Source of the DNA: Escherichia coli
GTDB taxonomy: Bacteria; Pseudomonadota; Gammaproteobacteria; Enterobacterales; Enterobacteriaceae
DNA: 64,000 bases
Reading direction: 5' to 3' (one strand)
Assembly (NCBI RefSeq): GCF_003790525.1
Contig: NZ_CP033635.1
This document shows positions 54,966 to 63,194 of the stretch, one piece after another. Each line of letters begins with the position of its first letter. Position 1 is the first letter of the stretch. A program made the translations under genes and the position numbers. Below the pieces are notes generated by a model. The model was given only the letters and a program-made list of their open reading frames with translations. It was not told the origin of the DNA and made no database searches.

Positions 54966-55199
54966 ATGAAAAAACAAAAGAAAATGCGATACGTATTACG
55001 CTGTATTCGTATCCCGCACGAAATCGACCATAAAATAAATCAGATATGTAAGGACAGAGAGATGAACTACTCCCAGTGCGTCAGAATGTTTATCTGTCAG
55101 GGAATTAAGGCCGGGGAAACGCAGGAAGAAGACCGCAACGGGCGCAATGTAGCGGGAGATGTGTGGGCCTGGGCAAATGACCAGAACTACACGACGTAA
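54966..55199 (+). CDS. Small putative ribbon-helix-helix-type DNA-binding protein, 77 aa
   Basis: Start at MKKQKKMRYVLRCIRIP with an upstream AGGGAGG ribosome-binding site; beta-strand then helices typical of RHH regulators; surrounded by GCGTAATAC repeats. Confidence 0.4.
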   Translation: MKKQKKMRYVLRCIRIPHEIDHKINQICKDREMNYSQCVRMFICQGIKAGETQEEDRNGRNVAGDVWAWANDQNYTT

Positions 55200-55249
55200 T
55201 ACAGAAATAACGTAGCCGGTTACACTCGCTGGCTGCGTTATACAAATCA

Positions 55250-55432
55250 CTATGAAGTTTTCAACTTCCTGCGCTTAGTGATGCGTACAAACGACTCAAG
55301 CGTACAAAAACAAGCCCCACACTCAATATTACTGCACTGGTAATACGTTTTGTAGATGTTTTGTTCGTGCTCTTCCAACGAACGACTACGGGTTCGGGCT
55401 GAAGCGCCACAGGCCGGGCAAGGGAAAGACAT
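55250..55432 (-). CDS. Ogr/Delta-family zinc-finger late-gene activator, 60 aa
   Basis: CPACGASARTRSRS...YQCSNIECGACFCTLES matches the P2 Ogr / P4 Delta C-X2-C-X22-C-X4-C signature. Confidence 0.7.
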   Translation of the reverse strand: MSFPCPACGASARTRSRSLEEHEQNIYKTYYQCSNIECGACFCTLESFVRITKRRKLKTS

Positions 55433-56046
55433 ATCACGCTCCTCTTACTGGTGTGAAATTTGACCTATTATATCTCCTGCCGCCCCCTCTGGCTGTATCA
55501 AATAAACCCGCAGCAGTCGCCGCGTATTACGGACGGACGCACCGTTCCCATGCTCACTCGTCACATTCCCCGTATCAGTTCTCTCTTACCGTAAGAACGG
55601 CTCTGGCTGGCGATAAAACTAACCCGGTCGGGCATTCCCGCAGTCTTTAGAGAAAATGTAATTTACCCCCTGAAACGTGGGCTGTTCCCCCGTCACCTGC
55701 GCGCGAAAAACTCACCGTTTTTTGTGCACGCACGAAATCGCCCTCCGGGTGCGCCAGTACTGGGCCGGATGGGCAAAAAGTTACTCTAAAAAATTGTGCA
55801 AATTTGTGCACTTTTGTGCAGATGAACAATAGCGTGAAAAAGAGTGCTTTTGAGAGATTTTTTATGGCAACTGCGCCGCGTGTATTACGTTTTTTACCAT
55901 CCCCGCCGCGCATGTACATACTTCATTTTTCTGCCAGACAACAGGGCAACTCCCCGTGACTGACAGCCCCAAAAAATCAATGATTGATGTTGCATTTTTG
56001 TTAAAGGTTAGACCAGTTGTTTTAGGGCTCTGCCTCATAATCCGGT

Positions 56047-56360
56047 GGGGGGTGCGCAAAGCGGTTACAACGGTTACAACACTCAAAAACACCACTTAAC
56101 AGCATGATTTTAATGGATATTGTTTGTAACCGCTTTGCGGTTACACTGCGGTTACAACGGTTACAGGTTTCAAAAAGCACTTTATTATCAATCAATTAAA
56201 AACTTAACCTGTAACCGCCTGTAACCTAACAAAACGGTTACATGTAACCGCGTTGTAACCGCTTTTATAACTCATCGGACCAGTTATAATATATTGATAT
56301 ATAATACAAAAATAAGTAATTTTAAATTTGTAACCGTTGTAACCGCTTTGCGCACCCCCC
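56047..56360. repeat. Heptamer-repeat cluster (GGTTACA / TGTAACC) bounded by 33-bp perfect inverted repeats, candidate replication origin
   Basis: 56047..56079 ggggggtgcgcaaagcggttacaacggttacaa is the exact reverse complement of 56328..56360; about 14 heptamer copies in both orientations lie between. Confidence 0.6.
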
Positions 56361-56611
56361 CCCAAACTTTAGCGCGACCCTTTAAAATGTTAATTAAACT
56401 CACTTACTCTGTATCTCTCTCGTTAACTCTCTGTTATTGAAATGTATCTCTCCACTGTTTCACTCTTTCTGATAATCAGGGGAAGCAAAAAATTGATGGC
56501 GGCACTACTGCAATATGGCCACCATTGCATTGCTGTTACCGTTGGTTCTGGCCAACAAAAAAGGTCAGCGGGAAACTGACCTCTTTTGCTGTGAATGCGG
56601 CGTTCTGCGGG

Positions 56612-57616
56612 TTACTCTGCTGGCTCTTTTTCTTCGGTGATCACTATGTTGGCTACCGGGTTAAATCTCATGGCATCTGCCAGATAATCCGGTGCAAAAT
56701 GTGCGTATGCCATAGTCTGCTGAATTGTCGCATGCCCAAGGATTTTTTGTAGCGCAAGAATGTTGCCACCGTTCATCACAAAGTGACTGGCGAATGTATG
56801 CCGCAATACATGCGCAGCCTGCCCCCTCGGTAAATCGGGTTTTATTTTTTTTAATGCCCGGCAAAACTCTCTGTACTTCACATCAAACAGTCGCCCGGTT
56901 TCTTTTGTTTTTACGGCATCGCATATTTCCTGCGACACAGGCACCGTTCTTTTTCTACCGTTTTTGGTTTCCAGAAACGTTATTCTGTTATGAACTATTT
57001 GCTCTCCATGCAATCTGCTGGCCTCACTCCAGCGGGCTCCGGTACAAAGACACAAGAGCGCAACCCTTCGTTGATCTCCATTCAGCCCGTCAAGCAACAA
57101 TGTGACCTCGTTTTTTGATAAAAAGGCCATTTCCCGCTGCTTTACATAAAGAACAGGAATACCACGAACCGGATGCTCTGCATCCCACAAACCGATCTTT
57201 TTCAGGGCTGTAAACATCCCCGATAATCTGTTCATGTATCTGTTTGCTGAGGACGGCTTTAATCCTTCCGCAATTTTCTGCGATCGCCATGCAATGATTT
57301 TTAATTTGTTGAGTTCTGCCGCAAACATGTCAGCTCCAAGCTCATTAATAATTTTGCCAAGTTGCTGTTTATCCGTGTTTGCCTTTCGCCTGTGCTGACC
57401 GTGATAGACCCACCACAATTCCAGTAAATCGCTAAGCGTTCTCCGGTCGCGATAGCCCTGTATAAACTCGCGCTTTTCGGCGTTCGCTATGATGTACCGT
57501 TCAGTTGCTGTAGCTATCGATTTTTTGTCAAATATTCTTCTGATGCGCTTCCCTTTACGTCCGCATGGCCTGATATCGAGCAGCCACCGCCCATCATGCA
57601 TCTTTCTGATCGGCAT
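56612..57616 (-). CDS. Tyrosine recombinase / phage-type integrase, 334 aa from Met MPIRK
   Basis: Box I TGARWSEASRL and box II HVLRHTFASH...LGH...Y motifs; strong AGGAGG ribosome-binding site 8 bp upstream; start 2 bp after the primase stop. Confidence 0.75.
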   Translation of the reverse strand: MPIRKMHDGRWLLDIRPCGRKGKRIRRIFDKKSIATATERYIIANAEKREFIQGYRDRRTLSDLLELWWVYHGQHRRKANTDKQQLGKIINELGADMFAAELNKLKIIAWRSQKIAEGLKPSSANRYMNRLSGMFTALKKIGLWDAEHPVRGIPVLYVKQREMAFLSKNEVTLLLDGLNGDQRRVALLCLCTGARWSEASRLHGEQIVHNRITFLETKNGRKRTVPVSQEICDAVKTKETGRLFDVKYREFCRALKKIKPDLPRGQAAHVLRHTFASHFVMNGGNILALQKILGHATIQQTMAYAHFAPDYLADAMRFNPVANIVITEEKEPAE

Positions 57617-57618
57617 GT

Positions 57619-60312
57619 TTAACTCCCCTCCTTGTAACTGAATATCCGGCATTTCAGTACTTCCGGCTCTCTGGCCTCGGCGACCCCTCTTCCGGCGTTT
57701 GCCTGTCTGGAGACCTCACTACGAATGGTTTTGCGGCCTGTCAAAGGTCGGGAACGTCCGGCTGCGAGCAACTCAATCATTTCGCGGTCAGTTCGGATCT
57801 CCACGCGGTGAATAGCGGCAGCCTGTGCCAGTTGCGGAATACTGATAGCAATCCCCTCGCGGCATCCCTTGCCGTAGTGGTTTACACCGTATTTTGTTAT
57901 GCCGTCCAGATAGTCGAACGCCTCCCAGAACGCTATTACTTCCGGCAAGTCATCCGTTACCGCTTTAACTTGTTCCGCTGCCATTCGTTCCAGTTCCTGG
58001 CATGTGGCATTAAGCCATTCATCCGGGATATCAATAACGCATTTCAGCGCCCTGACCAGCGCAATAAGTTGCGCGTGATTTTTGGCAATACGGGGATGGA
58101 GAATATTTTCGCAACCGCAAAGGCGGGTCGTTTCAGGCTCTGAGAGCGCCAGAAACATTTCCATAATTGCCCGTTCACGGCTGACTGCCCGATGAATAAA
58201 CCCTGACACCTTCTCAACGGGGTAGAGTTCCAGTCGTCTCGCCGCCAGCCGGGTATCAGACGAGTGGCGCTTTTTATCGGTATATATGCGAATCAGTCGC
58301 TCAATAATTGCAAGTGAGGCGTTTACCCTGGCATTCTGTGCAATCACGATAGCGCCCTTAAAATCCGGGTCATAGGTGTTGTTATTGTTGGTCTTAACGC
58401 CACGAACGCCGATACCGCCGCCGTTATAGAGGCTTTTCAGGTTATCGAAGTCAAACGCACCTCTTTTTTGCGCATTGCCTCCCCTGTCTGCTTCAATCAG
58501 AACAACAGGTAATCCGGCGACCTGTCCAAAGGTGCGCTTCCAGCCCGCCTCTGATCCTTTGGTTGGATCAACGCCTTCATAGTTGTCACGACCGCACAAC
58601 CGCCAGCAAAAATCAATCAATGTTGATTTACCCGTTCCGGGCTCCCCGGTGACTTCAAGGAAGGGGAAGGATTCTTCTTTATCCCGGATTTGTTCGCTGA
58701 ACAGGGAGCCCAACCAGAAAGCCAGGGTAATAATTCCTTTTTCACCAAAAGCCAGCCAGAGATCTTCCACCCAGGACTCTGTAAACTCATCCGGTTTTTT
58801 GTAGTTAATCTGTAATGTGGGTTTTTCGCTTAATGGTTTTGCGTTTATGCCATCAATTTCAAAATAATCTTCGTCATTGATTTCATAAGTTTTTCCCTTG
58901 TAAACAGCAATATCATTAAACAGCCATGCCCCAATCGCCTTGTTGTATCCGATAAAATCCTGACCAATAACCTCTTTTATTGCGGGAAGGTCATTTTTTA
59001 TTAATGCGTCAAGGTGCGCAGTTGTTCCGGTATAAATGCCGCCTTTTGCCACATGCAACAGGCGTTTTTTAAATTCAGATGCGGATGTCAATTGTCCTGA
59101 TGTAAAGGTGTTTTTCACCGTAGCACCATCCGGGAACGTAACACGGAAGTAATACCATGCTTCATCCGTGTCATTATTTCTAATGTAATAAAGCGGCGCT
59201 GGGTTACAGTTTGCGATTTCTTTTACTGCGCCAGATTCCTTAAGTGCAATTTTGCGCGCTTCATCCTCATCAACACTTCTCTCATTCTTGGCACGCTCTA
59301 CAGCTTTCATATAGCGCTCAATGTCCAGTTTGAACCAGAAAACACGGTTATCAAAAGTAAAATGAAATTCCTTCCGCTCACGAAAGGAAAATATTATTAG
59401 CGCCTTATCTCTCGGAGATTTCGCCAGCAATAAATCACCGTAATGACGGTATCTTTTCACATCATGGCCACGCAGCTTTCCGGCGATGTGTAAATCATTC
59501 CAGTCGCGTTTATTGTTGTTTTTACCTGGCAACGCCGCTGCCGTTCTCCAGCCGTCTTCGGCGCTGCGTTCTGCATGTTTTTTCGCGTAACGCTCACCCG
59601 CACGCCCGTTATCCAGCGCCCACACAATAACCGGACGGGGATTATCCCCGCACAGCTTCGCCAGCTCTTCCAGCGCCTTATCAGGGTAGTTCACGGCAGA
59701 CATGACAGAAACGGCCGCAATGCCATTCTGGTTAAGGCTGATGGCATCAAAGATGCCCTCACAAATCCAGATTTCTTTGGCCTTGCTTAAATCTGCTCCC
59801 GGATAAGCCCACCACAACCCCTTGTAGCTGCCGGAAAAATTCGCCTTGCGCGCGAAGCGTCCCGGTCGGTCTATGATGCGCTCCCACCACACGCCGTCAG
59901 CCAGCGTAAAACGCACAGTAGCGGCCTGTTCGCCGTTTTCCTTGTCCTGGTATCGCTCCTGAGTAAATGCGCCCTTCAGTGGCCCCACAGCAATATTGCG
60001 CGCCTCCTGAAGATAAGCTGCCACCGCTGCATATGGCTCGTCTTTCGTGCTGATATAACGATCTGACCATGATGAAAACACATCCGGGTAAAGTTCTTTG
60101 GTCAGCAGGTCTGTACCGCATTTATTTTCGCGCCCACAGTGTACGATGTACGGCCTTTCAAGGCTGGTAAACAACTCTTTCTTTCCACATTGCGGACAAA
60201 CACCATACCGGAGGTAGTTATTTTCTTCTTTGAAGTTGTAATCACGGATAAGACGGTTAATAATCTCTTTTCTGATGTCAGATTTCATATATAAAACTCC
60301 ACCCCACTGCAC
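57619..60312 (-). CDS. Primase-helicase replication protein (P4 alpha-like), 897 aa
   Basis: N-terminal zinc-binding CPQCG...HCG..C, Toprim-like CEGIFDAISL region and Walker A TGEPGTGKST. Confidence 0.75.
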   Translation of the reverse strand: MQWGGVLYMKSDIRKEIINRLIRDYNFKEENNYLRYGVCPQCGKKELFTSLERPYIVHCGRENKCGTDLLTKELYPDVFSSWSDRYISTKDEPYAAVAAYLQEARNIAVGPLKGAFTQERYQDKENGEQAATVRFTLADGVWWERIIDRPGRFARKANFSGSYKGLWWAYPGADLSKAKEIWICEGIFDAISLNQNGIAAVSVMSAVNYPDKALEELAKLCGDNPRPVIVWALDNGRAGERYAKKHAERSAEDGWRTAAALPGKNNNKRDWNDLHIAGKLRGHDVKRYRHYGDLLLAKSPRDKALIIFSFRERKEFHFTFDNRVFWFKLDIERYMKAVERAKNERSVDEDEARKIALKESGAVKEIANCNPAPLYYIRNNDTDEAWYYFRVTFPDGATVKNTFTSGQLTSASEFKKRLLHVAKGGIYTGTTAHLDALIKNDLPAIKEVIGQDFIGYNKAIGAWLFNDIAVYKGKTYEINDEDYFEIDGINAKPLSEKPTLQINYKKPDEFTESWVEDLWLAFGEKGIITLAFWLGSLFSEQIRDKEESFPFLEVTGEPGTGKSTLIDFCWRLCGRDNYEGVDPTKGSEAGWKRTFGQVAGLPVVLIEADRGGNAQKRGAFDFDNLKSLYNGGGIGVRGVKTNNNNTYDPDFKGAIVIAQNARVNASLAIIERLIRIYTDKKRHSSDTRLAARRLELYPVEKVSGFIHRAVSRERAIMEMFLALSEPETTRLCGCENILHPRIAKNHAQLIALVRALKCVIDIPDEWLNATCQELERMAAEQVKAVTDDLPEVIAFWEAFDYLDGITKYGVNHYGKGCREGIAISIPQLAQAAAIHRVEIRTDREMIELLAAGRSRPLTGRKTIRSEVSRQANAGRGVAEAREPEVLKCRIFSYKEGS

Positions 60313-60336
60313 CTTTTGCCGTGGGGTTTTTATTAA

Positions 60337-60636
60337 TTACTCGTTACTTATTGCTTTGGCAATCCCGGCGGTTTCAGCACTATGCCATGAAAAAATTCCG
60401 CCAGAAGTATGCATTCCTGACTTAATCACTCGTAATTCCCGATAAAGAATGTTAGTTAATGATTCCATTTCATTAATTTGCACTGGCATTCTCTCACTGG
60501 TATTAATTTCACCTGTCAATGCTGAAATGAGCGCAATAACATTTATTACATCTTCAAGATTCTCAATGGAATCTTCCGTGAAAAAACCAGCGTATTCTTT
60601 TTTGTATATATTGCGGATATTCTGATTTTCAGACAT
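60337..60636 (-). CDS. Hypothetical protein, 99 aa
   Basis: ORF on the same strand immediately upstream of the primase gene; no motif recognised. Confidence 0.35.
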   Translation of the reverse strand: MSENQNIRNIYKKEYAGFFTEDSIENLEDVINVIALISALTGEINTSERMPVQINEMESLTNILYRELRVIKSGMHTSGGIFSWHSAETAGIAKAISNE

Positions 60637-60703
60637 AAAAACTCCCCGACCCGTTAAGATCGAAATATAAATTTAATTCAGTTATCAGTTGGTAATTCGG
60701 TAA

Positions 60704-60922
60704 TCAGTCGGAAAGCTGCGTCACCTTCAACGCTTTGAAATGTGTCATTCCCAGCTCTTCCAGCCCTTCGGCTGCGCGGCGTATGGCTTCGCCCGGTCCC
60801 GTTCCGTATACCGTTGCATGTGCATGTTTGGTTAACCCACGTTTATTAACGGCATAACCCAACACAAAGAAACGTTTTTCACCACTGCCATTATTTTTAC
60901 GGGATATTGAACGGCTTTTCAT
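60704..60922 (-). CDS. Hypothetical protein, 72 aa
   Basis: Small ORF in the same-strand string upstream of the primase; overlaps the next ORF by 4 bp. Confidence 0.3.
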   Translation of the reverse strand: MKSRSISRKNNGSGEKRFFVLGYAVNKRGLTKHAHATVYGTGPGEAIRRAAEGLEELGMTHFKALKVTQLSD

Positions 60923-61134
60923 TTCTTCACCCTTACCACTGATGCTGTGAGTTCTTCTGGCAATTGATATTTCGGCGCAATTTCTTCCGTATACCTGATA
61001 GCGTCCCTTGCCGCTTTTCCTTTTGATTTATATTTATATGTGGTGCGGTAGTTTTCTTCCTCTCCTGTTACCACATTACGCAATTTTATATGAATCTCGT
61101 ACATCGTTACCCCTCCATGATTTTTACTGCGCAT
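60919..61134 (-). CDS. Hypothetical protein, 71 aa or shorter
   Basis: Small ORF with a 4-bp overlap to the downstream gene, suggesting an operon. Confidence 0.3.
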   Translation of the reverse strand: MRSKNHGGVTMYEIHIKLRNVVTGEEENYRTTYKYKSKGKAARDAIRYTEEIAPKYQLPEELTASVVRVKK

Positions 61135-61281
61135 TTGTGGGTTAATCGCCCCTGTTTGTCATTGCGGGAATATGCCATACGACAGGTATCACGCCATGCA
61201 TCGTCATAAGTCGGATATTCCCGGGAATGAATCATCTGGCGAACGTCGCCGTTCTGGTAGTTAATCAGGGTGATAAGGAGC

Positions 61282-61719
61282 TTAAACATGGCACGCCTCC
61301 CGGACACGGATACGGGCAACAAAGACCAGACGGGATGCCGGAAGCAGGGCGCGCGCTTCGCGCTCACTGGCAGCGGTAACGGTATGAAGGCGGATATTTT
61401 TACCGTGGCACTGCATAAAGCGCCAGATAAAATCAGGGCGTGTTGATATAGCCATTTTGGCGGCTCCTTGATTAAGTTTACGGAGTCTCGCCAGCACGCT
61501 GTCAAACATGGTGGCGGGACGTAACAGGGTTGACAGACTGGCAATCAAGGAACCAGCGAGCGCAAAGGCTCCCCCATTACGCCCCGCCATAATACGGGGT
61601 AGGGTGGAATTACGGGCACAAAAAAACCGCATTACGGAAATATAGCGGCTACCCGCTTGATTGTTCAGGCTGTCAAACCCGGCACCCGCTTTATGAGGTG
61701 CGGGCAAACGATACGCCAT
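61282..61719 (-). CDS. Hypothetical protein, ~145 aa from Met MAYRLPAP
   Basis: ORF in the same-strand array between alpA and the primase gene; start codon uncertain. Confidence 0.3.
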   Translation of the reverse strand: MAYRLPAPHKAGAGFDSLNNQAGSRYISVMRFFCARNSTLPRIMAGRNGGAFALAGSLIASLSTLLRPATMFDSVLARLRKLNQGAAKMAISTRPDFIWRFMQCHGKNIRLHTVTAASEREARALLPASRLVFVARIRVREACHV

Positions 61720-62362
61720 GACAAAAAAGCGAGTCAAGCAATATTGCAAATTATTTTTGCGCAATTGCGCTGAGTGATTGATTTTTAAGAGTAAAAAAGT
61801 CATAATCATTTCTGCCTATTGTTTCTTATTGTTGATTTCAGGTGCACTAAATGCACATCCTTGACTGGTTGGCTCGCTGGCTTTAGCGAGCTTCTTTTTT
61901 GCTCTGCTGCCAATACCCGGCCTCCTTCCCTCACATGTAGTCATGTGCTCATTCCAGTCAGGTGGATAATGCTGTATTACCGGACATCCGGTTATGATGT
62001 TTAAAGCGTTTGTTTGTTTATGCCACGTGGAGAATATACCCCCACCGCCATTACTTGTATTTATCATAACAGTTCACCCAATTCGGTTAATGTAACCGGA
62101 ATAACTCAATTTCATACACTGTAAATAAATGCTGATTTTAAACTTAGCTCCTTGGAATATATTTCTTACGTGTGACGCACAGGTGAAAATATCCCTCTGA
62201 TAGTCCATTTTCTTTTATTTTGTCACATCTGTTTACTCCGGTTCCCTTAACAAGGGTAGAGCATCTTTTAAACCATGAATGCATCTTCGGTTAAGTGATG
62301 TTTCTTATTGTATGAAATATTTAGGCGCATATCGCGCCATGCTGACTATAAAATGAAAATAA

Positions 62363-62584
62363 TTAAGCCTGAAAACGTTGTTGTTTTCTTTCTTCTATCC
62401 AGTCGATAATTTCCTCTTCAACCCATGCAACCGCGCGAGGGCCTATTTTTATTGGTTTGGGGAATATATCAGATTTTATATCTTCGTAAATTCGAGCTCT
62501 TGATCTCCCTGTGATTTCAATGACTCTGGGGAGTCTTATTAATTTTTGAATCCGCCTTTCGCTGGTCTGTGAGTATGCTGACAT
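62363..62584 (-). CDS. alpA: AlpA-family prophage transcriptional regulator, 73 aa
   Basis: IRLPRVIEITGRSRARIYEDIKSDIFPKPIKIGPRAVAWVEEEIIDWI matches the AlpA/MerR-like excisionase-regulator signature. Confidence 0.8.
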   Translation of the reverse strand: MSAYSQTSERRIQKLIRLPRVIEITGRSRARIYEDIKSDIFPKPIKIGPRAVAWVEEEIIDWIEERKQQRFQA

Positions 62585-63194
62585 ATTGGCCTCCTGTATA
62601 TGCTGACATTTTACGTTAGCTCACAGCGGGAGCATGTAAGATCTCGCGGTCGTCTGCGGGACGAGAAAAATCATAAACAACGAAAAGCGGATTTGTAAAT
62701 CAGGTCGATTTTCAGGCGGGGTTGACATGGACAGTGAGATTTGTTCCATGTGTGCAATATACATTTTAGGACCACTTTAAGCCACTTTAAACCGCCAGAA
62801 AGCGACAAAGAATAACAAGTTAGTGCCAGAAAGGTTTGCTGACTTACCCTTTTAGGTACCAGAAAAAGCCCTTTCAGGTCGGTGTAATGCTTGTGAACGC
62901 TGAAATAGTGGTTTCTGAAAACAAAAAAAGAATTGAAAATGTGATAAATATCACAAAATAATATCGATAAAATAGTTTGATTTTTTTGTTTTTATTAAAA
63001 GCACTGGTTAATTGTAAAAAATTAATTATAAATCAAATGGATATATCTGTTTTTTTAGGGTAAAAATCACTAGGTGCTTTTAGCAGTATCTTATTCTATT
63101 GATTTTAAAAGATAAAAAAATCGGCGTGTCCACATATTGTCCACGCCTTGAGTTTAATTCAGCCGCTTGGGATAGTTTAGTTTGTTGAGTTGAT

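What the first reader, a model, noticed from the sequence alone, without database searches (positions are those of the whole stretch)
56047..56360. Dense heptamer-repeat cluster bounded by 33-bp perfect inverted repeats: candidate satellite replication origin
56047..56079 and 56328..56360 are exact reverse complements over 33 bp, with G6 and C9 runs at the outer ends. Between and within them are about 14 copies of GGTTACA / TGTAACC in both orientations. The cluster lies 250 bp downstream of the primase-helicase-recombinase operon. Repeat-dense regions next to a primase gene are how P4-type origins are organised, but the long perfect terminal inverted repeats are unusual and could instead indicate a small transposable or recombination-site element.
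Basis: seen in the sequence. Interest (0 to 1): 0.65.

Follow-up and report, generated by a model that had tools for sequence, protein, structure and literature searches.

The report
Iteron replication origin of a phage satellite
This 314-bp stretch is most likely the origin where a phage satellite's own primase-helicase starts DNA copying; its long inverted ends are a conserved feature of this origin type, not a sign of a jumping element or a recombination site.

Summary
Positions 56047-56079 and 56328-56360 are perfect 33-bp reverse complements, and 13 exact GGTTACA heptamers lie between 56063 and 56344.

The cluster sits in a P4-like satellite, 251 bp past a primase-helicase / tyrosine-recombinase operon. 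It occurs once per genome, in 64 of 5426 complete E. coli genomes, and never inverted.

The same architecture accompanies homologues of this primase in Pectobacterium, Samsonia, Klebsiella indica, Comamonas, a Neisseriales MAG, Alkalilimnicola and Pseudomonas, and in the P2-like phages phiCTX and ESSI2_ev239. It consists of a G-run, GGAAA(A)G and two iterons 9 bp apart at each end, inverted, with AT-rich spacers and 10-13 iterons over 270-315 bp. Most of these elements lack the recombinase.

Among 19 distinct E. coli loci, the three iteron variants co-segregate perfectly with the helicase/C-terminal half of the primase (34 diagnostic columns). They do not co-segregate with the three recombinase alleles (0 columns), although that gene lies between primase and cluster.

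Best explanation: an iteron origin recognised by the primase-helicase. It works like P4 crr/ori and PICI/SaPI origins but is not a member of the P4 alpha system. This is inferred from comparison, not shown by experiment. Transposon and recombination-site readings are not supported.

The parts
56047..56079 (.). Primase-distal terminal module: G6, TGCGCAAAG box, and two iterons 9 bp apart (56063-56069, 56072-56078). This is the left arm of the 33-bp perfect inverted repeat.
   Evidence: The homologous module (G-run + GGAAA(A)G + 2 iterons) is present in relatives.
56080..56122 (.). AT-rich spacer 1, with an IHF-like site AATCATGCTGTTA at 56097-56109 (minus strand). A TAAAATCA motif recurs at the same place in relatives.
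   Evidence: Motif seen.
56125..56131 (-). Single inner iteron in inverted orientation.
56139..56165 (+). Three direct inner iterons (56139, 56150, 56159) with 11- and 9-bp spacing.
56166..56209 (.). Central AT-rich spacer 2, with a perfect IHF-consensus-like site TATCAATCAATTA at 56186-56198.
   Evidence: Conserved as TATCAATTAATTA / TATCAATTTGTTA in L002 / L004.
56210..56260 (-). Inner iterons on the right half: 56210 and 56220 (-), the palindromic pair GGTTACATGTAACC at 56236-56249, and 56254 (-).
   Evidence: The palindromic pair is conserved in L002, L003 and as ATTACATGTAAT in K. indica.
56262..56327 (.). Most AT-rich segment (GC 15-17.5% at 56280-56339). It is the candidate DNA-unwinding element and contains the conserved ATATATTGATATATAA and an IHF-like site at 56287-56299 (-).
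56328..56363 (.). Primase-proximal terminal module: two iterons (56329, 56338), CTTTGCGCA box and C9 run. This is the right arm of the inverted repeat.
56553..56591 (-). Terminator-like hairpin that ends the primase-recombinase operon and separates it from the cluster.
   Evidence: (I7).
56612..57616 (-). P2/HP1-type tyrosine integrase (334 aa). It occupies a variable cargo slot between primase and origin and is not a partner of the repeats.
   Evidence: Absent at this position in L020, L022, L091, L057, L061; replaced by another gene in L021.
57619..60288 (-). Primase-helicase (889 aa from the annotated ATG). It has a Zn-ribbon, toprim at 182-274, a Walker A motif at about 548-556, and a C-terminal helical bundle plus winged-helix-like domain. 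It is the proposed initiator that reads the iterons.

Best explanation
The 314-bp cluster is the vegetative replication origin, or at least the cis-acting site bound by the initiator, of a P4-like satellite integrated at tRNA-Arg. The proposed mechanism is as follows.

The satellite's 889-aa primase-helicase binds the (C)GGTTACA iterons. Binding most likely goes through its C-terminal helical-bundle plus winged-helix region together with the helicase half. The two terminal modules carry paired iterons 9 bp apart next to a G-run/GCAAAG box, in opposite orientation. The inner iterons are spaced 9-11 bp apart. Together they would assemble initiator oligomers head-to-head around the AT-rich spacers.

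IHF-like sites in all three spacers could bend the DNA. Melting would occur in the AT-rich stretch (56262-56327, GC about 15%). The same protein would then unwind the DNA and prime it with its toprim domain.

Shown here: the repeats exist; the architecture is conserved across the primase family; the iteron variant co-segregates with the C-terminal half of the primase; the recombinase is independent of the repeats. Inferred: actual binding, the melting site, any role for IHF, and replication itself.
For: 1. Context. The element has P4-type int, AlpA, C4 antisense RNA / Icd, primase, ogr/Delta and a gpN-like gene. P4's crr is likewise a 300-bp array of 10 octamers in both orientations, just downstream of its primase-helicase gene, with 9-11 bp spacing.

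2. The same architecture accompanies homologues of this primase that are 40-54% identical. It lies directly after the gene in Pectobacterium/Samsonia (+171 bp) and Comamonas (+231 to +272 bp). It lies after a different gene in K. indica. It lies 2.8-3.8 kb downstream in Neisseriales, Alkalilimnicola and Pseudomonas loci. In the phages ESSI2_ev239 and phiCTX it lies several kb from the primase gene: about 4.5 kb upstream of it, beyond int/attP, in ESSI2_ev239 as laid out in L099, and about 4.4 kb beyond it, past int, in phiCTX. Each lineage has its own iteron: GTTACA, ATTACA, GTAACC, GGTAAC, AGGTGA, GGTAAT, TCACA.

3. The primase is the only window protein found in all 12 cluster-bearing loci tested.

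4. In 19 distinct E. coli loci, iteron types A (CGGTTACA), B ((A/G)GGTTACA) and C (GGTCACA) match clusters of primase residues 460-889. Identity is 88-100% within a type and 81-89% between types, with 34 perfectly diagnostic columns, all at residues 463-881. Residues 1-460 show no such structure.

5. The inverted-repeat arms change together in both arms between lineages.

6. The C-terminal 200 aa model is confident (pLDDT 94). Its last 90 aa give winged-helix DNA-binding hits, and the whole fragment weakly matches the replication helicases SaPIbov5 Rep and SCCmec Cch.

7. Primase and cluster co-occur almost one to one: 65 versus 64 of 5426 genomes.

8. Three of the 12 window-wide IHF-like matches fall within the 314 bp, and GC drops to 15%.
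Against: There is no experimental evidence of replication or binding.

The architecture was found in only 10 of 83 genome loci within +/-4.5 kb of a primase homologue. It was not found in the whole genome of Ralstonia phage RSY1. It is therefore not universal for the family, or it is too degenerate for my k-mer method.

Co-segregation of iteron type with the primase C-terminal half rests on few independent recombination events and is partly linkage.

In phiCTX the cluster lies between int and cos. By my own reading of the sequence it sits just beyond a tRNA-like attP core, so a role in integration or packaging there cannot be excluded from position alone.
Confidence: 0.75

Rival explanations
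1. The cluster is bound by the primase-helicase but is not the site of initiation. It would act as an auxiliary cis replication region, or as a copy-control / incompatibility array (a P4 crr-like enhancer, or iteron handcuffing), with initiation elsewhere.
For: P4 needs two separate iteron regions, ori and crr, and crr is the one located just downstream of alpha. All the comparative evidence above shows association with the primase, not initiation itself.
Against: No second iteron cluster exists in the satellite part of the window. Only three isolated heptamers lie in that part (55218, 59202, 62091), close to chance. The cluster itself contains the AT-rich stretches and IHF-like sites expected of a melting site. 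Relatives also show a single cluster.
Confidence: 0.12
2. The cluster is a recombination site for the adjacent P2/HP1-type tyrosine recombinase. It would be an attP-like site with arm-type repeats, a multimer-resolution site, or an invertible switch bounded by the 33-bp inverted repeats.
For: The recombinase gene is 251 bp away. It is a true P2-type integrase (PDB 5c6k E 6e-80; 53% identical to the ESSI2_ev239 Int). The gene order ogr - cluster - int mirrors P2's ogr - attP - int (P2 order from my own knowledge). The size, 314 bp with inverted-repeat ends, resembles an inverton.
Against: The same architecture exists without any recombinase gene next to it in Pectobacterium, Samsonia and Comamonas, and with an unrelated gene in K. 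indica. Three recombinase alleles, 50-59% identical to one another, are shuffled across iteron types, with 0 diagnostic columns. The orientation string of the iterons is identical relative to the primase in all 20 loci, and all 40 listed E. coli matches are single collinear pieces, so no inversion is seen. ESSI2_ev239 has both a normal P2-type attP with TGTGGAC arm repeats next to its int and, about 1.4 kb further on, the iteron cluster. The cluster has no TGTGGAC sites.
Confidence: 0.04
3. The cluster is a packaging- or terminase-related site, or a binding array for another conserved phage/satellite protein such as an Ogr/Delta-type or AlpA-type regulator.
For: In phiCTX the cluster ends about 175 bp from cosR. 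No P2/P4-type cos was found anywhere in the window, so the satellite's packaging site is unassigned. Ogr-like or AlpA-like genes are present in many of the cluster-bearing loci. A 10-11-nt match (CGCAAAGCGG) to the sequence beside P4 cos exists.
Against: The cos-flank match is not significant (E 1.8-7.3). Iteron variants track the primase half rather than anything else measured. Within the flanks sampled, neither Ogr-like nor AlpA-like genes are found in all cluster-bearing loci, whereas the primase is. Established Ogr/Delta targets are single TGT-N12-ACA dyads at late promoters, not arrays (my own knowledge).
Confidence: 0.05
4. The unit is a small non-autonomous transposable element (MITE-like) bounded by terminal inverted repeats.
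For: It has 33-bp perfect terminal inverted repeats and a size of 314 bp.
Against: There is one copy per genome. The 'second place' reported by BLAST is the inverted-repeat arm matching itself on the other strand. It is always at the same position within the satellite. There are no flanking direct repeats (AATCCGGT on the left, CCCAAACT on the right). The interior is homologous across orders together with the neighbouring primase. It is absent from the plasmid and phage collections at DNA level.
Confidence: 0.01

Closest known systems
Bacteriophage P4 crr and ori (alpha-dependent replication)
   Same: Both are satellites of P2-like phages. Both have a single multifunctional primase-helicase with the domain order Zn-ribbon, toprim, P-loop helicase, C-terminal DNA-binding end. 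In both, a cluster of about 300 bp with 10-13 short iterons in both orientations and 9-11 bp spacing lies just downstream of the primase gene.
   Different: The initiator is not an alpha homologue; BLASTP finds only the toprim and Walker A patches (E 0.004 and 2e-4). The iteron is GGTTACA, not TGTTCACC. There is one cluster rather than ori plus crr 4.7 kb apart. The cluster is organised as a long inverted repeat with G-run/GGAAAAG end boxes, whereas P4 crr is two 120-bp direct repeats.
PICI / SaPI pri-rep-ori replicons (for example EcCICFT073, SaPIbov1)
   Same: The layout is int - alpA - ... - pri/rep - ori. The ori lies 3' of the initiator gene and is made of iteron sets flanking an AT-rich region. 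For EcCICFT073 the pri-ori segment drives plasmid replication (PMC6092414). The C-terminal region of the window's primase gives weak fold matches to SaPIbov5 Rep and SCCmec Cch.
   Different: This element has P4-type immunity RNA, ogr/Delta and a P2 capsid homologue rather than PICI interference genes. I could not test sequence homology of the initiator to PICI Pri-Rep. The terminal inverted modules with G-run boxes are not part of the published description available to me.
phiCTX / ESSI2_ev239-type P2-like phages (Peduoviridae that carry a toprim primase-helicase instead of P2 gpA)
   Same: The primase belongs to the same family (41% and 51% identity over the full length; phrog_1139 over 883 of 895 positions). 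Both phages carry the same cluster architecture with their own iterons.
   Different: In the phages the cluster is several kb from the primase gene, beyond int/attP. The papers I could search describe the primase only as 'suggesting involvement in replication' and name no origin (PMC5694545; no hits).

Membership tests
P4 alpha-dependent ori/crr system | The initiator is a homologue of the P4 alpha protein. | tested here: not met
   BLASTP against P4 alpha gives only two short local matches: Walker A (27 aa, E 2e-4) and toprim (98 aa, 32%, E 0.004). The protein matches phrog_1139 end to end instead.
P4 alpha-dependent ori/crr system | Type I octamer iterons TGTTCACC. | tested here: not met
   P4 repeats were read from NC_001609. 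The window repeats are (C)GGTTACA.
P4 alpha-dependent ori/crr system | Two separate cis regions (ori and crr), both carrying the iterons. | tested here: not met
   There is one cluster. The other GGTTACA matches in the satellite are three isolated sites.
P4 alpha-dependent ori/crr system | An iteron array of about 300 bp, in both orientations with 9-11 bp spacing, immediately downstream of the primase-helicase gene (the crr position). | tested here: met
   In relatives the cluster lies directly after the primase gene.
PICI/SaPI-type pri-rep-ori replicon | The ori is 3' of the initiator gene, with iteron sets flanking an AT-rich region. | tested here: met
   The published description is in PMC6092414.
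PICI/SaPI-type pri-rep-ori replicon | The initiator's C-terminal part determines iteron specificity. | tested here: inconclusive
PICI/SaPI-type pri-rep-ori replicon | The cloned initiator + ori segment replicates autonomously. | not testable with these tools
   This needs a plasmid-maintenance assay.
Origin module of phiCTX/ESSI2-type primase-helicases (defined here) | Two inverted end modules (G-run, GGAAA(A)G-like box, two iterons 9 bp apart) enclosing AT-rich spacers and inner iterons: 10-13 iterons in 270-315 bp, in a genome that encodes a phrog_1139-type primase. | tested here: met
   Window compared with 11 other lineages. In the window the box is GCGCAAAG rather than GGAAAAG.
Tyrosine-recombinase site (attP / resolution site / inverton) | The site co-occurs and co-varies with its recombinase. 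| tested here: not met
   The cluster is present without the recombinase in L020, L022, L091, L057, L061 and L021. Recombinase alleles are shuffled across iteron types.
Tyrosine-recombinase site (attP / resolution site / inverton) | Both orientations of the inverted-repeat-bounded segment occur among genomes. | tested here: not met
   The orientation is identical in 20 loci. All listed E. coli matches are single collinear pieces.
Tyrosine-recombinase site (attP / resolution site / inverton) | P2-type arm sites (TGTGGAC repeats), as in the attP of the related phage integrase. | tested here: not met
   The ESSI2_ev239 attP shows TGTGGAC repeats. None occur in 56047-56360.
MITE / inverted-repeat-bounded transposable element | Multiple dispersed copies with target-site duplications. 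| tested here: not met
   Single copy per genome. No flanking direct repeat.

The most novel reading that the evidence does not exclude
The cluster may represent a previously undescribed origin class shared by phiCTX/ESSI2-type P2-like phages and a lineage of their satellites. In that case helper and satellite would use homologous primase-helicases and homologous iteron origins. The rapid, concerted switching of iteron and initiator specificity (types A, B, C among about 90%-identical satellites; GTCACA in type C versus (C/A)TCACA in phage ESSI2_ev239) would then reflect selection either to escape or to exploit cross-replication between helper and satellite. That would be a replicon-level layer of molecular piracy or incompatibility.
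Probability: 0.2. Interest if true: 0.65.

Novelty: new variant of a known kind. Interest (0 to 1): 0.45.

Why it matters
If confirmed, this gives a concrete and easily testable origin for a widespread primase-helicase family. That family replaces gpA in many P2-like phages, including phiCTX, whose int-attP is the basis of mini-CTX vectors (my own knowledge). It also drives a lineage of E. coli, Klebsiella and Pectobacterium satellites. No origin for this family is named in the literature I could search.

The natural A/B/C iteron-initiator pairs are a ready-made system for studying how origin specificity evolves. The result also shows that the gene slot between primase and origin is a cargo site, holding here a second, P2-type integrase. 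Finally, it removes a false lead: the inverted repeats are not a mobile or invertible element.

Tried and rejected
- Inversion test. The orientation strings of the iterons relative to the primase are constant in 20 loci, and the BLAST matches are collinear, so the switch idea was rejected.
- Dispersed-repeat test. The apparent second copies per genome are self-matches of the inverted-repeat arms.
- DNA similarity in the phage and plasmid collections: none found.
- P2/P4 cos. There is no match with 3 or fewer mismatches in the window. A short CGCAAAGCGG match to the P4 cos flank is not significant.
- Rfam scan of 51500-64000. It found only C4/isrK at 61.5-61.7 kb and nothing in the cluster.
- Promoter/terminator scan. 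Hits in the cluster were at chance level; only the operon terminator is notable.
- PDB sequence search with the primase: nothing found.
- Fold searches of the C-terminal 200 aa and of the last 93 aa. They gave only weak matches (winged-helix proteins, SaPIbov5 Rep, Cch). P4 alpha's origin-binding domain was not retrieved.
- Ralstonia phage RSY1. No comparable cluster was found in the whole genome with exact 5/6-mer counting. About 70 other primase loci showed none within 4.5 kb.
- Literature searches for a described phiCTX-type origin: none found.
- TGTGGAC arm-site search in the cluster: none found.

Full report
**Observation**

Positions 56047-56079 and 56328-56360 are perfect reverse complements over 33 nt, and reach 36 nt with one mismatch. 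Thirteen exact GGTTACA/TGTAACC heptamers lie between 56063 and 56344. That is 13 of the 18 matches in the whole 64-kb window, where shuffles give 6.4 +/- 2.6. Twelve of the 13 extend to CGGTTACA.

The heptamers are arranged as follows:
- two at each end, 9 bp apart and in opposite orientation;
- an inverted single and a direct triple on the left;
- two inverted copies, a palindromic pair (GGTTACATGTAACC) and one more inverted copy on the right.

Three AT-rich spacers separate these groups. GC falls to 15% at 56280-56319. Three of the window's 12 matches to a relaxed IHF pattern fall inside the 314 bp.

**Context**

The region is 99% identical to E. coli GF60. There it lies in a roughly 12-kb island next to tRNA-Arg/yfdC. 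Read along the minus strand, from the right-hand end of the window leftwards, the window carries:
- a P4-type integrase (63195 to beyond 64000);
- AlpA (62363-62584);
- a C4 antisense RNA and isrK inside the 'Icd-like' region (61507-61714);
- small ORFs;
- a toprim primase-helicase (57619-60288);
- a tyrosine recombinase (56612-57616);
- a terminator hairpin (56553-56591);
- the cluster;
- ogr/Delta (55250-55432);
- a 236-aa ORF;
- a P2-gpN-like capsid homologue;
- on the plus strand, beyond the capsid homologue, a MazE/PemK pair.

This is a P4-like satellite. The cluster with its flanks occurs in 64 of 5426 complete E. coli genomes, always on the chromosome. The apparent second copy per genome is the inverted-repeat arm matching itself on the other strand. 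There is no DNA-level match among 50,697 phage records or 72,556 plasmids.

**The two neighbouring proteins**

The primase has Toprim_2 at residues 182-274 and a Walker A motif with a weak DUF5906 match. It matches phrog_1139 over its whole length. It is not a close relative of P4 alpha; only the toprim and Walker A patches align.

By tblastn it is the 'DNA primase' of P2-like phages that lack gpA: Escherichia phage ESSI2_ev239 (51%), Ralstonia RSY1-type phages (44%), and Pseudomonas phiCTX and Dobby (41%). It also appears in 4 plasmid records.

The recombinase is a genuine P2/HP1-type integrase. It matches PDB 5c6k at E 6e-80 and 1aih at 5e-48, has Pfam Int_N plus Phage_integrase, and is 53% identical to the ESSI2_ev239 integrase.

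**Which protein goes with the repeats?**

Three lines of evidence point to the primase.

First, the repeat architecture follows the primase family and not the recombinase. A scan of one genome per species found 80 loci with primase homologues across Gamma- and Betaproteobacteria, with a few from other groups.

The shared architecture is a G-run, a GGAAA(A)G-type box and two iterons 9 bp apart at one end, the mirror image at the other end, and AT-rich spacers with inner iterons between. It holds 10-13 iterons in 270-315 bp. It is present in:
- Pectobacterium and Samsonia, starting 171-177 bp after the primase stop, iteron GTTACA;
- two Comamonas genomes (+231 and +272 bp, GTAACC);
- Klebsiella indica (+1428 bp, ATTACA, with an unrelated gene in between);
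- a Neisseriales MAG (GGTAAC);
- Alkalilimnicola (AGGTGA);
- a Pseudomonas genome (GGTAAT).

It is also present in the phages themselves. In ESSI2_ev239 it is at L099:530-840 (iteron TCACA). In phiCTX it is at 35107-35385 (GGTAAT).

ESSI2_ev239 also has an ordinary P2-type attP beside its int gene, with TGTGGAC arm repeats. That attP looks nothing like the cluster. Of 14 window proteins tested by tblastn, only the primase is found in all 12 cluster-bearing loci.

Second, there is variation within E. coli. Nineteen distinct loci carry three iteron variants, each changed in concert in nearly all copies and in both inverted-repeat arms:
- type A, CGGTTACA;
- type B, (A/G)GGTTACA;
- type C, GGTCACA.

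Primase residues 460-889 cluster exactly by iteron type. Identity is 88-100% within a type and 81-89% between types. Thirty-four columns are perfectly diagnostic, all between residues 463 and 881. Residues 1-460 (Zn-ribbon and toprim) show no such structure.

The recombinase has three alleles only 50-59% identical to each other, and they are distributed across types:
- allele 1 occurs with A and B;
- allele 2 with B and C;
- allele 3 with A and B.

No recombinase column is diagnostic. The recombinase gene lies between the primase gene and the cluster. The primase-cluster pairing has therefore survived recombination that replaced the gene in the middle. This is what selection for a matched initiator-origin pair predicts. 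The number of independent events is small, so I treat this as good but not conclusive evidence.

**Rival readings**

An invertible or recombination site is contradicted in three ways. Many relatives lack the recombinase. The recombinase alleles are shuffled relative to iteron type. The cluster has the same orientation in all 20 loci, and all 40 listed E. coli matches are collinear.

A MITE is contradicted by the single copy, the fixed position and the lack of a target duplication.

A packaging role cannot be fully excluded. In phiCTX the cluster lies near cos, and I found no P2/P4-type cos in the window. However, the similarity to the P4 cos flank is at chance level, and the iteron type tracks the primase.

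The most serious alternative is a refinement rather than a contradiction. The array could be an auxiliary primase-binding region like P4 crr rather than the initiation point. Against this, there is only one cluster in the element, and it contains the AT-rich and IHF-like features itself.

**Limits**

The architecture was detected near only 10 of 83 primase loci sampled with 4.5-kb flanks. It was not detected in the complete genome of Ralstonia phage RSY1 by exact k-mer counting. It is therefore either not universal or too degenerate in GC-rich hosts for this method. Nothing here shows binding, melting or replication.

**Comparison with known systems**

Functionally the cluster resembles P4 crr/ori and the pri-rep-ori replicons of PICIs and SaPIs. 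The PICI/SaPI origins are described as two iteron sets flanking an AT-rich region 3' of the initiator gene, and the EcCICFT073 example was shown to replicate (PMC6092414).

It fails three defining features of the P4 system: alpha homology, the TGTTCACC iteron, and the bipartite ori plus crr. It should therefore not be filed as a P4-type origin in the strict sense.

The papers I could search describe the phiCTX/RSY1-type primase only as probably involved in replication and name no origin (PMC5694545). Older subscription papers were not searchable, so prior description cannot be excluded.

**Verdict**

This is a real, non-random feature. It is most likely an iteron origin read by the satellite's primase-helicase (confidence about 0.75). 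It is a new variant of a known kind. Interest is moderate. Its value lies in a family-wide, testable origin prediction and in natural specificity variants, not in a new principle.

Noticed in passing
window 52820-54091 (-), with 54091-54801 (-) and 55250-55432 (-): The satellite carries a 423-aa homologue of the P2 major capsid protein gpN (TIGR01551 E 4e-39, below the curated cutoff; phrog_70 E 2e-77) with an extra N-terminal region of about 120 aa. It sits after a 236-aa coiled-coil ORF and an ogr/Delta gene, where P4 has sid/psu. The same trio is present in a Klebsiella indica element (L021). A capsid-protein paralogue in a satellite suggests a different way of redirecting helper capsid assembly.
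   Followed up: partly
window 56612-57616 (-) and 63195 to beyond 64000 (-): The satellite encodes two tyrosine recombinases: a P4-type integrase at the tRNA-Arg end and an internal P2/HP1-type integrase. Three alleles of the latter, 50-59% identical to one another, are exchanged among otherwise about 90%-identical satellites. Its substrate and role are unknown.
   Followed up: partly
window 63128-63144 (-): A pair GTGGACAATATGTGGAC has the same motif as the P2-type Int arm sites in the attP of phage ESSI2_ev239 (L099:2240-2256), and its 11-bp repeat spacing matches the pair at L099:2240-2256. It lies between the P4-type int gene and alpA and is conserved in L001, L006, L012 and L015. It is a possible binding site for the internal P2-type integrase.
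   Followed up: partly
window 61507-61594 (-) and 61620-61701 (-): C4 antisense RNA (74.6 bits, E 2e-13) and isrK (50.6 bits) lie under the ORF annotated 'Icd-like'. This is a P4-type RNA immunity region.
   Followed up: no
window 52116-52125 and 52150-52159 (+): Two copies of TGTAGACACA, 34 bp apart, lie immediately upstream of mazE (52184). They are probably the operator of the MazE/PemK toxin-antitoxin pair.
   Followed up: no
window 55720-55822: A second, unrelated repeat set of TTGTGCA motifs, including the palindrome GTGCAAATTTGTGCAC at 55796-55811, lies between the cluster and ogr/Delta. It overlaps a dubious 90-aa annotated ORF (55647-55919). It may be a regulator binding site or a late promoter element.
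   Followed up: no
window 51500-64000: There is no match to the P2/P4 cohesive-end sequence GGCGAGGCGGGGAAAGCAC at 3 or fewer mismatches anywhere in the window. The satellite's packaging site, and therefore its helper type, is unassigned.
   Followed up: partly
L099:1-80 (end of RefSeq NC_049392, Escherichia phage ESSI2_ev239): The deposited phage genome ends in what I recognise as Illumina/Nextera adapter sequence (CAAGCAGAAGACGGCATACGAGAT...GTCTCGTGGGCTCGGAGATGTGTATAAGAGACAG). The record's ends are therefore not the true genome termini.
   Followed up: no
window 43019-50932 (+): A 2637-aa ORF annotated in the near-identical genome as the phase-variable autotransporter adhesin UpaE lies beyond the left end of the satellite, followed by an OmpH-family gene (50980-51510), which is the gene nearest that end.
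   Followed up: no
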